Assembly: GCF_051903065.1 (NCBI RefSeq)
Contig: NZ_CP178438.1
From: Escherichia coli
Lineage (GTDB): Bacteria; Pseudomonadota; Gammaproteobacteria; Enterobacterales; Enterobacteriaceae
Direction: 5' to 3' (one strand)
Length of the DNA stretch: 64,000 bases
Positions 31,081 to 31,462 of the stretch are shown here, piece by piece. The notes under the pieces were generated by a model. The model ran no database searches. It was not told where the DNA came from and saw nothing but the letters and a program-made list of their open reading frames with translations. The translations under genes were made by a program, and so were the position numbers. Every line of letters starts with the position of its first letter. The stretch's first letter is position 1.

Positions 31081-31462
31081 TACTTCTCCGGTTAGTAAGA
31101 AATCACGGAAGGAATGCTACCACTGCGAATTTAACCACTTACTGACATGGCTCACGATGTCACGTATTGCACCGGGCGCTGAGACTGATGACAAACACAG
31201 CATTGCCTGATGCGCTACGCTTACCAGACCTACCAGATAACTGCAATATATTGAATTTTCGAGATTATGTAGGCCGAATAAGGCTTTATTCCGCATCCGG
31301 CATAAACAATGTGTACTTTGCCACCAATTTGAGCGCCCCTTAAGGCGCTGATATTTTTTTATCCTTCTCGTGCACATTGGGCCGCTTCAGCAATCAGCCG
31401 CACATCAGGTCGCGAAGTTGCCGCGGCGACCAGCCAGCGACATGCAGAGTTGAGTAACGCGA

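What the first reader, a model, noticed from the sequence alone, without database searches (positions are those of the whole stretch)
31175..31365. pepE-proximal junction of the sor block carries REP units and a palindromic hairpin with a T-run on the wrong strand
Between pepE and sorE (both minus strand) there are REP-like units and a GC-rich palindrome agcgcccc-tt-aaggcgct followed by tttttttat on the plus strand. This orientation would terminate plus-strand transcription although no plus-strand gene ends nearby. It may be a relic marking the boundary where the sor block was gained or lost.
Basis: inference. Interest (0 to 1): 0.3.

Follow-up and report, generated by a model that had tools for sequence, protein, structure and literature searches.

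The report
Old operon-end hairpin plus REP repeat
The hairpin and REP units between pepE and sorE are the ordinary 3' end of the E. coli sorbose operon: a hairpin conserved across enterobacteria, a common repeat element and the stump of a lost eighth gene, not an insertion scar.

Summary
Two degenerate REP units (31204-31233, 31269-31302) and a GC hairpin (31332-31349) followed by T7 on the plus strand (31354-31360) are there. All are absent from the K-12 pepE-rluF spacer.

The interpretation needs revising.
- Colinearity with K-12 breaks at 31170/31171, 160 bp left of the hairpin.
- The REP pair with its linker is a BIME-1 (RIP-type) repeat with at least 40 related copies per E. coli genome.
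- The stretch 31359-31470 is the stump of an eighth sor-operon gene, sdhL, left by a 701-bp internal deletion. sdhL is intact in 177 of 5,426 E. coli genomes.
- The hairpin lies 9 nt past the sdhL stop codon, and the "wrong-strand" T-run overlaps that stop codon.
- The same hairpin follows sdhL in 27 of the 39 enterobacterial loci compared. In several genera a ccdAB toxin-antitoxin pair converges on it from the other strand.

So the hairpin is an ancestral stem-loop shared by two operon ends, and E. coli has lost the plus-strand partner. The order rluF-sor-sdhL-pepE is conserved across genera, so the K-12 state is a deletion. This is an ordinary feature of low interest.

The parts
31081..31170 (.). 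pepE upstream region shared with K-12. This is the last colinear stretch on the pepE side. It probably holds the pepE promoter (inference).
   Evidence: It matches K-12 spacer positions 1-90 at 94% identity. All 5,424 matching E. coli genomes share at least positions 1-81.
31172..31203 (.). Left outer arm of a long imperfect palindrome. It starts with GGGCGCT (31174-31180), a third copy of the hairpin-arm motif.
   Evidence: Inverted repeat I2, 31174-31195 against 31317-31338, is 77% complementary. The 201-nt minus-strand fold is -70 kcal/mol, z = -5.0. The arm does not belong to the dispersed repeat.
31204..31233 (+). z1-type REP unit (TGCCTGATGCGCTACGCTTACCAGACCTAC), slightly degenerate.
   Evidence: Better preserved in strain KY178, locus L005 and other Escherichia species.
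31234..31268 (.). Long (L) linker of a BIME-1. It carries an IHF-site-like motif, AATTCAATATATTGCAG, at 31241-31257 (minus strand).
   Evidence: One exact hit here, and a 3-mismatch copy beside another REP pair at 61020-61036. The BIME-1 definition is taken from PMC3333891.
31269..31302 (-). y-type REP unit, degenerate (GCCGGATGCGGAATAAAGCCTTATTCGGCCTAC on the minus strand).
   Evidence: There is a weak Rfam naRNA4 (REP-derived RNA) hit at 31272-31307. The unit has canonical sequence in KY178, L005 and E. whittamii.
31303..31331 (.). Right outer arm of the long palindrome.
31332..31349 (.). Conserved GC hairpin. It reads AGCGCC-CCTTAA-GGCGCT on the plus strand and AGCGCCU-UAAG-GGGCGCU on the minus strand. 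It is orthologous to the hairpin that follows sdhL in other Enterobacteriaceae.
   Evidence: Pair counts show 89.8% of cells paired, with 0 of 500 shuffles as high.
31350..31361 (.). GATA plus T7 (31354-31360) on the plus strand. On the minus strand this is the sdhL stop codon TAA (31359-31361) followed by AAAAATATC.
   Evidence: Variants among E. coli are A+T7, G+T7 and A+T6. Escherichia with intact sdhL have GATGTTTCTTA.
31359..31470 (-). Unannotated stump of sdhL, a shikimate 5-dehydrogenase-like gene. The 3' part is 31359-31412 and the 5' part is 31413-31470. A 701-bp internal deletion has its junction at 31412|31413. The start codon ATG (31468-31470) overlaps the sorE stop codon.
   Evidence: Alignment to the intact gene in KY178 and M160133. 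The intact protein matches NCBIfam NF009202 at 455 bits. The remnant translates to MINRVTQLCMSLAGRRGNFAT*.
31463..32692 (-). sorE, the last intact gene of the sor operon.
   Evidence: RefSeq annotation of the 100% identical strain ECNB21-M121.

Best explanation
The finding covers the 3' end of the minus-strand sorbose operon, which is made of three things.

1. The hairpin at 31332-31349 is an ancestral stem-loop. In Enterobacteriaceae it sits a few nucleotides after the stop codon of sdhL, the eighth gene of the sor operon. In many genera it lies exactly between sdhL and a convergent ccdA-ccdB toxin-antitoxin operon, so it is a stem-loop shared by two convergent operon ends. Escherichia lacks ccdAB. 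Most sor+ E. coli have also lost 701 bp of sdhL, so the hairpin now appears orphaned 113 nt downstream of sorE.

2. The plus-strand T-run is the short spacer between the sdhL stop codon and the hairpin. TAAGAAACATC changed to TAAAAAA(A)TATC in the E. coli lineage that carries the sdhL deletion. It is on the strand that ccdAB transcripts used in relatives. In this genome it has no identifiable transcript to terminate.

3. The REP pair is a BIME-1 (RIP-type) repeat that lies where ccdB lies in relatives.

Inferred mechanism, not shown here: on sor mRNA the hairpin and the REP stem-loops act as 3' barriers that stabilise the transcript and damp read-through into the co-oriented pepE. The minus strand has no U-tract after the hairpin, so termination there is probably not intrinsic. 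The hairpin plus T-run could stop stray plus-strand transcription from entering the sor genes antisense.
For: Comparison with K-12:
- K-12 shares only 31081-31170 and 37489-37523, and has no hairpin.

The sdhL stump:
- Intact sdhL lies between sorE and the hairpin in KY178 and in 176 other E. coli genomes.
- The window keeps both ends of the gene around a 701-bp deletion.
- sdhL next to sor in ST648, induced by L-sorbose, is already published (PMC12817954).

Conserved gene order:
- The order rluF-sor-sdhL-pepE is shared by another Escherichia species, Citrobacter and K. oxytoca. Phytobacter has the same order but lacks pepE.

The hairpin in other species:
- The hairpin GAGCGCC-loop-GGCGCTC sits 7-16 nt after the sdhL stop in 27 of the 39 loci compared.
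- 89.8% of cells pair, with 0 of 500 shuffles as high. Phytobacter carries one core compensatory change, GCACC/GGTGC.
- ccdB and ccdA (Pfam 6.9e-25 and 2.9e-24) converge on sdhL, and the ccdB stop codon abuts the hairpin, in Klebsiella, Kluyvera, Citrobacter, Pseudocitrobacter and Phytobacter.
- In a Pseudocitrobacter metagenome-assembled genome a REP pair replaces ccdB while ccdA remains.
- Where ccdB is gone and pepE follows directly, several Citrobacter and Raoultella have U-rich tails on the sor-sense side. These are canonical terminators.

The repeat element:
- BIME-1 family membership rests.
Against: - There are no transcript data, so every functional statement is inferred.
- Stem conservation is mostly sequence identity, and true covariation is thin.
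- Changes that keep only a G-U wobble favour the sor-sense RNA 6 times and the antisense RNA 5 times, so the working strand is unresolved.
- Most ccdB-bearing species have no good U-tract on either side, so "terminator" may overstate what the hairpin does there.
- The 176 sdhL+ E. coli that lack the REP pair have lost one hairpin arm as well. ST648, the lineage in which sdhL is published, induces the sor operon. If those genomes are ST648-type, the hairpin is dispensable; their sequence types were not checked.
- All sampled E. coli with the sdhL deletion keep T6-T7. That could reflect selection for a plus-strand terminator rather than shared descent.
Confidence: 0.75

Rival explanations
1. The hairpin plus T-run is a working intrinsic terminator for a present-day plus-strand transcript. 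That transcript would be an unannotated antisense RNA or a REP-derived RNA starting near the pepE promoter region. The T-run would have been sharpened by selection in E. coli.
For: It passes the terminator scan. All 9 sampled E. coli with the sdhL deletion keep T6-T7, while Escherichia with intact sdhL have TTTCTT. REP-derived RNAs exist, for example naRNA4 (PMC4550694, listed), and the REP units here give weak naRNA4 hits.
Against: - No sigma-70-like promoter is predicted on either strand in 30200-32000.
- No Rfam family reaches threshold.
- No plus-strand gene is annotated. The plus-strand ORF 31167-31343 is broken by a 1-nt indel at about 31172 in UTI89, O145 and other strains.
- The stem is short (6 bp, -9.7 kcal/mol) and 4 nt separate it from the T-run.
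- The T-run overlaps a stop codon, and its changes coincide with the loss of sdhL, so shared descent explains it equally well.
Confidence: 0.15
2. This is the first reader's idea: the hairpin and REPs are a scar marking the junction where the sor block was inserted into, or excised from, the pepE-rluF spacer.
For: The features are absent from K-12 and lie near one end of the strain-specific DNA.
Against: - The colinearity break is at 31170/31171, not at the hairpin.
- The gene order is ancestral across genera.
- The hairpin is present in species that have never had this junction.
- K-12 shares with the REP-less sdhL+ allele the sequence ATTGCTTCTGG and the same missing 8 bp. K-12 therefore lost the REP pair and one hairpin arm first, and the sor genes later.
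Confidence: 0.04
3. The hairpin is simply part of the mobile REP/BIME unit, one end of a REPIN-like palindrome, and arrived together with it.
For: - The hairpin's pepE-proximal arm (31332-31337) starts a long inverted repeat around the REP pair.
- In the REP-less E. coli allele that arm is missing together with the REP pair. The missing segment is bounded by the direct repeats CAGCGCCTT and CAACGCCTT.
- The segment is inverted in Pseudocitrobacter faecalis and tandemly amplified in E. albertii.
Against: - Complete hairpins exist in Klebsiella, Citrobacter, Kluyvera, Raoultella and Phytobacter with no REP pair beside them.
- The outer arms are single-copy in E. coli genomes, with a median of 1 place per genome, and are not part of the dispersed repeat.
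Confidence: 0.05

Closest known systems
BIME-1 / RIP (RIB) elements: a y and a z1 REP in inverted orientation around a long L linker with an IHF site, typically at the 3' ends of transcription units (Bachellier/Gilson classification; Boccard and Prentki 1993, as cited in PMC3333891)
   Same: It has two inverted REP units and a 35-bp linker carrying AATTCAATATATTGCAG. It is a single copy at an operon's 3' end. It aligns to another copy in the window and to at least 40 places per genome.
   Different: Both REP units are degenerate in this strain, and the strict REP pattern fails. The element is enclosed by a locus-specific inverted repeat. IHF binding was not tested.
Bidirectional Rho-independent terminators between convergent genes
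   Same: In Klebsiella, Kluyvera, Citrobacter, Pseudocitrobacter and Phytobacter the orthologous GC hairpin lies between the convergent stop codons of sdhL and ccdB. In E. coli it has an A-run on one side, which reads as a T-run on the other strand.
   Different: In E. coli only one side has a U-tract, and the gene that would use it is absent. Most orthologues lack good U-tracts on both sides.
REP-stabiliser 3' structures of operon mRNAs (malE-malF type; Newbury et al. 1987, Khemici and Carpousis 2004; cited from my own knowledge and from the reference list seen)
   Same: Stable stem-loops sit immediately downstream of the last coding sequence of an operon, on the transcribed strand. The minus-strand fold is -70 kcal/mol.
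   Different: No decay or 3'-end data exist for the sor transcript, so the role is assumed by analogy.

Membership tests
BIME-1 / RIP element | One y-type and one z1-type REP in inverted orientation | tested here: met
   The z1 unit is at 31204-31233 (+) and the y unit at 31269-31302 (-). Both are degenerate: the strict pattern fails at 3 or fewer mismatches. Orthologous copies in KY178, L005 and E. whittamii are canonical.
BIME-1 / RIP element | Long conserved L linker that carries an IHF binding site | tested here: inconclusive
   The 35-bp linker has an IHF-like motif shared with a second copy at 61020-61036. Protein binding cannot be tested with these tools.
BIME-1 / RIP element | Member of a dispersed multi-copy family in the genome | tested here: met
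This holds in 5,425 of 5,426 genomes, including sor-negative ones.
BIME-1 / RIP element | Occurs as a single, non-tandem copy | tested here: met
   It is a single copy in E. coli. E. albertii has about 4 tandem copies of the unit.
Intrinsic terminator, plus strand | GC-rich stem-loop directly followed by a U-tract | tested here: met
   The stem has 6 bp (5 G-C) and 7 U follow after a 4-nt spacer. It passes the scan. Stem energy is -9.7 kcal/mol.
Intrinsic terminator, plus strand | Lies at the end of a transcription unit on that strand | tested here: not met
   There is no plus-strand gene, conserved ORF or predicted promoter here. The feature is met only in relatives that carry ccdAB.
Intrinsic terminator, minus strand (sor operon) | U-tract after the stem on the operon's own strand | tested here: not met
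   The E. coli tail is CAAAUUGGUGGC. Citrobacter (UUUAUUUU) and a Raoultella (GUUUUCGUUU) orthologues do meet it.
Conserved structured element (hairpin) | Base pairs are maintained across species, with compensatory change | tested here: inconclusive
   89.8% of cells pair, with 0 of 500 shuffles as high. Only one core compensatory pair is seen, in Phytobacter, and most columns are invariant. The strand is not resolved, 6 against 5 wobble-only cells.
Known RNA families (Rfam 15) | A match at or above a family's gathering score | tested here: not met
   Only sub-threshold naRNA4 and ES036 hits fall on the REP units.
SdhL-type shikimate 5-dehydrogenase gene (for the stump at 31359-31470) | Full-length match to NCBIfam NF009202 | tested here: not met
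   The intact orthologue scores 455 bits against a cut-off of 306. The window keeps only 112 nt around a 701-bp deletion, with a premature stop. It is a pseudogene remnant.

The most novel reading that the evidence does not exclude
In E. coli the hairpin plus T6-T7 run has been kept or sharpened as a live plus-strand terminator. It would end a REP/BIME-derived non-coding RNA (naRNA-like), or an antisense transcript arising next to the pepE promoter, and so shield the sor operon from antisense transcription. In addition, the BIME-1 segment between the GGCGCT-tipped inverted arms may be invertible: it is flipped in Pseudocitrobacter faecalis and amplified in E. albertii.
Probability: 0.1. Interest if true: 0.35.

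Novelty: new member of a known kind. Interest (0 to 1): 0.15.

Why it matters
The significance is modest.
- It corrects the picture of the pepE-rluF polymorphism. The sor block is ancestral at this site and K-12-type strains are deletion derivatives. The hairpin is not a junction scar.
- It shows that most sor+ E. coli carry an unannotated stump of an eighth operon gene, sdhL.
- It gives a worked example of how a terminator-like signal on the "wrong" strand can be what remains of a hairpin once shared with a convergent toxin-antitoxin operon.

No new mechanism is implied.

Tried and rejected
- **K-12's middle 86 bp against the sor+ spacers.** I tested whether K-12's own middle 86 bp, including its TATTTTTTATC, is homologous to the hairpin tail or to the sorC-rluF spacer. 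Local alignment scores were at the shuffle mean. The sorC-rluF spacer of the REP-less allele is the same as the window's and does not explain it either. Only K-12 positions 156-211 resemble rluF upstream DNA, in Kluyvera.
- **The outer palindrome arm as a ccdB remnant.** I tested whether the arm next to the hairpin is a remnant of the ccdB 3' end. There was no signal above shuffles.
- **Which strand's RNA is under selection.** I hoped that G-U-only substitutions would show this. The count was 6 against 5, so the test is uninformative.
- **Coding potential.** The ORFs at 31167-31343 (+) and 31117-31377 (-) are broken by 1-nt indels among strains and are not annotated.
- **Rfam.** The search gave nothing at threshold.
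- **Promoter scan.** It found no sites.
- **Literature.** Searching sorE with pepE returned noise.

Full report
**What is there**

The window matches E. coli strain ECNB21-M121 at 100% over the queried spacer. The genes on the minus strand are pepE (30391-31080) and sorE (31463-32692), followed by the rest of sorMABFDC up to 37176. rluF starts at 37524 on the plus strand.

The 382-bp pepE-sorE spacer contains the following:
- a z1-type REP at 31204-31233 (+);
- a 35-bp linker;
- a y-type REP at 31269-31302 (-);
- the hairpin AGCGCC-CCTTAA-GGCGCT at 31332-31349;
- GATA plus T7 at 31354-31360.

The terminator scan lists the hairpin on the plus strand. It folds better than all 200 shuffles (z = -3.5). 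The stem alone is modest, at -9.7 kcal/mol.

The K-12 pepE-rluF spacer is 211 bp. Its first 90 bp equal window 31081-31170, and its last 35 bp equal window 37489-37523. The middle 86 bp match neither side above chance. K-12 has no terminator-like hairpin there. The hairpin is thus absent from K-12, but it lies 160 bp inside the sor-specific DNA and not at the junction.

Among 5,426 complete E. coli genomes:
- 2,689 carry the window-type spacer;
- 2,557 carry the full K-12 spacer;
- about 176 carry a third form, described below.

**The REP pair**

The REP-linker-REP unit aligns to a second copy in the window at 60981-61082 (78% over 106 nt, E = 2e-16). The linker motif AATTCAATATATTGCAG recurs, with 3 mismatches, beside that second copy.

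This fits the published definition of BIME-1: y and z1 REPs in inverse orientation around a conserved long linker that often carries an IHF site. Such elements are described at the 3' ends of transcription units (PMC3333891). In this strain both REPs are degenerate, and the strict pattern fails.

The unit is enclosed by a locus-specific inverted repeat, 31174-31195 against 31317-31338. As a result the whole of 31172-31340 folds as one long imperfect palindrome on the minus strand (-70 kcal/mol, z = -5.0).

**A hidden eighth gene**

One E. coli genome, JNEC-KY178, showed a 270-aa "shikimate 5-dehydrogenase" gene between sorE and the hairpin, overlapping the end of sorE. It is an SdhL-type enzyme (NCBIfam NF009202, 455 bits).

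The window retains both ends of this gene. The 5' part is 31413-31470 and starts MINRVTQLCMSLAGR. The 3' part is 31359-31412. They flank a 701-bp deletion with its junction at 31412|31413. All nine other sampled sor+ strains of this allele share the same junction. RefSeq annotates nothing there.

The sdhL stop codon TAA is at 31359-31361 on the minus strand. The hairpin therefore begins 9 nt after it, and the plus-strand T-run is the complement of TAA plus AAAAA.

Intact sdhL occurs in 177 genomes. Its presence next to sor in ST648, and its induction by L-sorbose, is already published (PMC12817954).

**The sor block is ancestral at this site**

The order yjbD-rluF-sorCDFBAME-sdhL-pepE-yjbB-metH is found in another Escherichia species, in Citrobacter and in K. 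oxytoca. Phytobacter and K. variicola have the same order but lack pepE. Kluyvera ascorbata has a reduced form. The K-12 state is therefore a deletion.

The 176 sdhL+ genomes, such as M160133, have only a 122-bp pepE-sdhL spacer. It reads ...TAA GAAACATC AGCGCC TTGTTTGCC... and has neither the REP pair nor the second hairpin arm. Compared with the Escherichia locus L005, the missing roughly 190 bp is bounded by the direct repeats CAGCGCCTT and CAACGCCTT. The complete hairpin exists in genera that lack the REP pair, so this form is best read as a deletion.

K-12 shares ATTGCTTCTGG and the same missing 8 bp with this form. The K-12 lineage therefore lost the REP pair and one hairpin arm first, and the sdhL-sor genes afterwards (inference).

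**The hairpin across species**

A scan of one genome per species with SdhL returned 35 enterobacterial loci. Together with four loci fetched earlier, 39 loci were compared, and 27 of them have (G)AGCGCC-loop-GGCGCT(C) 7-16 nt after the sdhL stop. These are Escherichia species, Pseudocitrobacter, Kluyvera, Citrobacter, Klebsiella, Raoultella, one Enterobacter and Phytobacter.

On the alignment 89.8% of cells pair, with 0 of 500 shuffles as high. Most stem columns are invariant, however. The only compensatory change in the core is in Phytobacter (GCACC/GGTGC). Substitutions that keep pairing only through G-U favour the sor-sense RNA in 6 cells and the antisense RNA in 5. The functional strand therefore cannot be inferred.

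**Why a signal on the "wrong" strand**

Seven species or lineages have a ccdA-ccdB pair between pepE and sdhL, convergent on sdhL:
- K. michiganensis;
- K. grimontii;
- Kluyvera intermedia;
- Citrobacter sp. Cu233;
- Pseudocitrobacter vendiensis;
- a metagenome-assembled enterobacterial genome (UBA3516);
- Phytobacter (near-complete).

The Pfam matches are CcdB 6.9e-25 and CcdA 2.9e-24. The ccdB stop codon abuts the hairpin. Several other species keep only fragments of ccdA or ccdB.

In window orientation ccdAB would be on the plus strand, running from the pepE side into the hairpin. The hairpin is thus a stem-loop shared by two convergent operon ends, and Escherichia lacks the plus-strand partner. 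In a Pseudocitrobacter metagenome-assembled genome a REP pair replaces ccdB while ccdA survives. In P. faecalis the BIME-1 segment is present but inverted relative to E. coli.

Where ccdB is gone and pepE follows directly, some Citrobacter and Raoultella have U-rich tails on the sor-sense side. These are canonical terminators for the operon.

E. coli has no such tail (CAAAUUGG). Its plus-strand T-run is stronger than in any relative. Escherichia with intact sdhL read GATGTTTCTTA. E. coli with the deletion read GAT(A/G)T6-7A.

**Mechanism (inferred)**

On sor mRNA the hairpin and the REP stem-loops probably act as 3' exonuclease barriers and attenuate read-through into the co-oriented pepE. This follows what is established for REP/BIME elements (references). 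Termination is unlikely to be intrinsic at the hairpin, because the minus strand has no U-tract there.

On the plus strand the hairpin plus T-run could stop stray transcription. No promoter, gene or known RNA family is detectable there.

The hairpin is probably not essential. The sdhL+ genomes without the REP pair have lost one of its arms. ST648, the lineage in which sdhL is published, induces the sor operon. The sequence types of those genomes were not checked here.

**Verdict**

This is an ordinary operon 3' end: a conserved hairpin, a BIME-1 repeat and a pseudogene stump. The "boundary relic" interpretation is replaced by [quoted passage not shown]. Interest is low.

Noticed in passing
window 31359-31470 (-): This is an unannotated pseudogene stump of sdhL, the eighth sor-operon gene, left by a 701-bp internal deletion. 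The same junction is shared by every sampled sor+ E. coli of this allele. The gene is intact in only 177 of 5,426 genomes.
   Followed up: yes
L055 3842-4452, L040 3840-4447, and also L034, L050, L074, L089 and L012: A chromosomal ccdA-ccdB toxin-antitoxin pair sits between pepE and sdhL, convergent on sdhL, in several Klebsiella, Kluyvera, Citrobacter, Pseudocitrobacter and Phytobacter genomes. Decayed fragments remain in other species. Escherichia has none.
   Followed up: partly
L026 (E. albertii) 3581-4326; L025 (Pseudocitrobacter faecalis) 3834-3979: The BIME unit is present as about four tandem copies in E. albertii. In P. faecalis it is inverted relative to E. coli (78% over 147 nt). 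This suggests recombination between the flanking inverted arms.
   Followed up: partly
L001 (K-12) 2240-2319, which is spacer positions 97-176: About 80 bp of the K-12 pepE-rluF spacer has no detectable counterpart in any sor+ allele examined. Only positions 156-211 resemble rluF upstream DNA of Kluyvera (87.5% over 56 nt). Its origin is unexplained.
   Followed up: partly
L001 (K-12) 3228-3359, compared with window 38396/38397: K-12 has 132 bp between rluF and yjbD, with terminator-like hairpins. In the window, and in strains LF82 and M160133, the two genes abut with no spacer.
   Followed up: no
window 30313-30384: A REP pair lies just downstream of pepE. It gives a sub-threshold Rfam naRNA4 hit (46.4 bits against a gathering score of 59.5) and a terminator-like hit on the minus strand.
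   Followed up: no
L011 (Kluyvera ascorbata) 7056-8813: This is a reduced form of the locus, rluF, a sorC-like regulator (307 aa), sdhL, then pepE. The PTS genes, sorD and sorE are missing, and so is the hairpin.
   Followed up: no
L007 about 1800-1950 and L010 about 1580-1730 (upstream of rluF): Citrobacter and K. oxytoca carry an insertion between sorC and rluF that looks like an ERIC/IRU-type repeat (recognised from memory, not tested). E. coli lacks it.
   Followed up: no
L002 1-346 (strain ECNB21-M121, beyond iclR; equivalent to window about 23000): A type III effector gene, espL4, is annotated next to iclR in the strain identical to the window.
   Followed up: no
window 31172-31340: The whole segment forms a 170-nt imperfect palindrome. 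Its outer arms (31174-31195 and 31317-31338) are single-copy and start with the hairpin-arm motif GGGCGCT/AGCGCCC. That arm could therefore pair locally or across the REP pair. The origin of the arms is unknown, and they are not a detectable ccdB remnant.
   Followed up: partly
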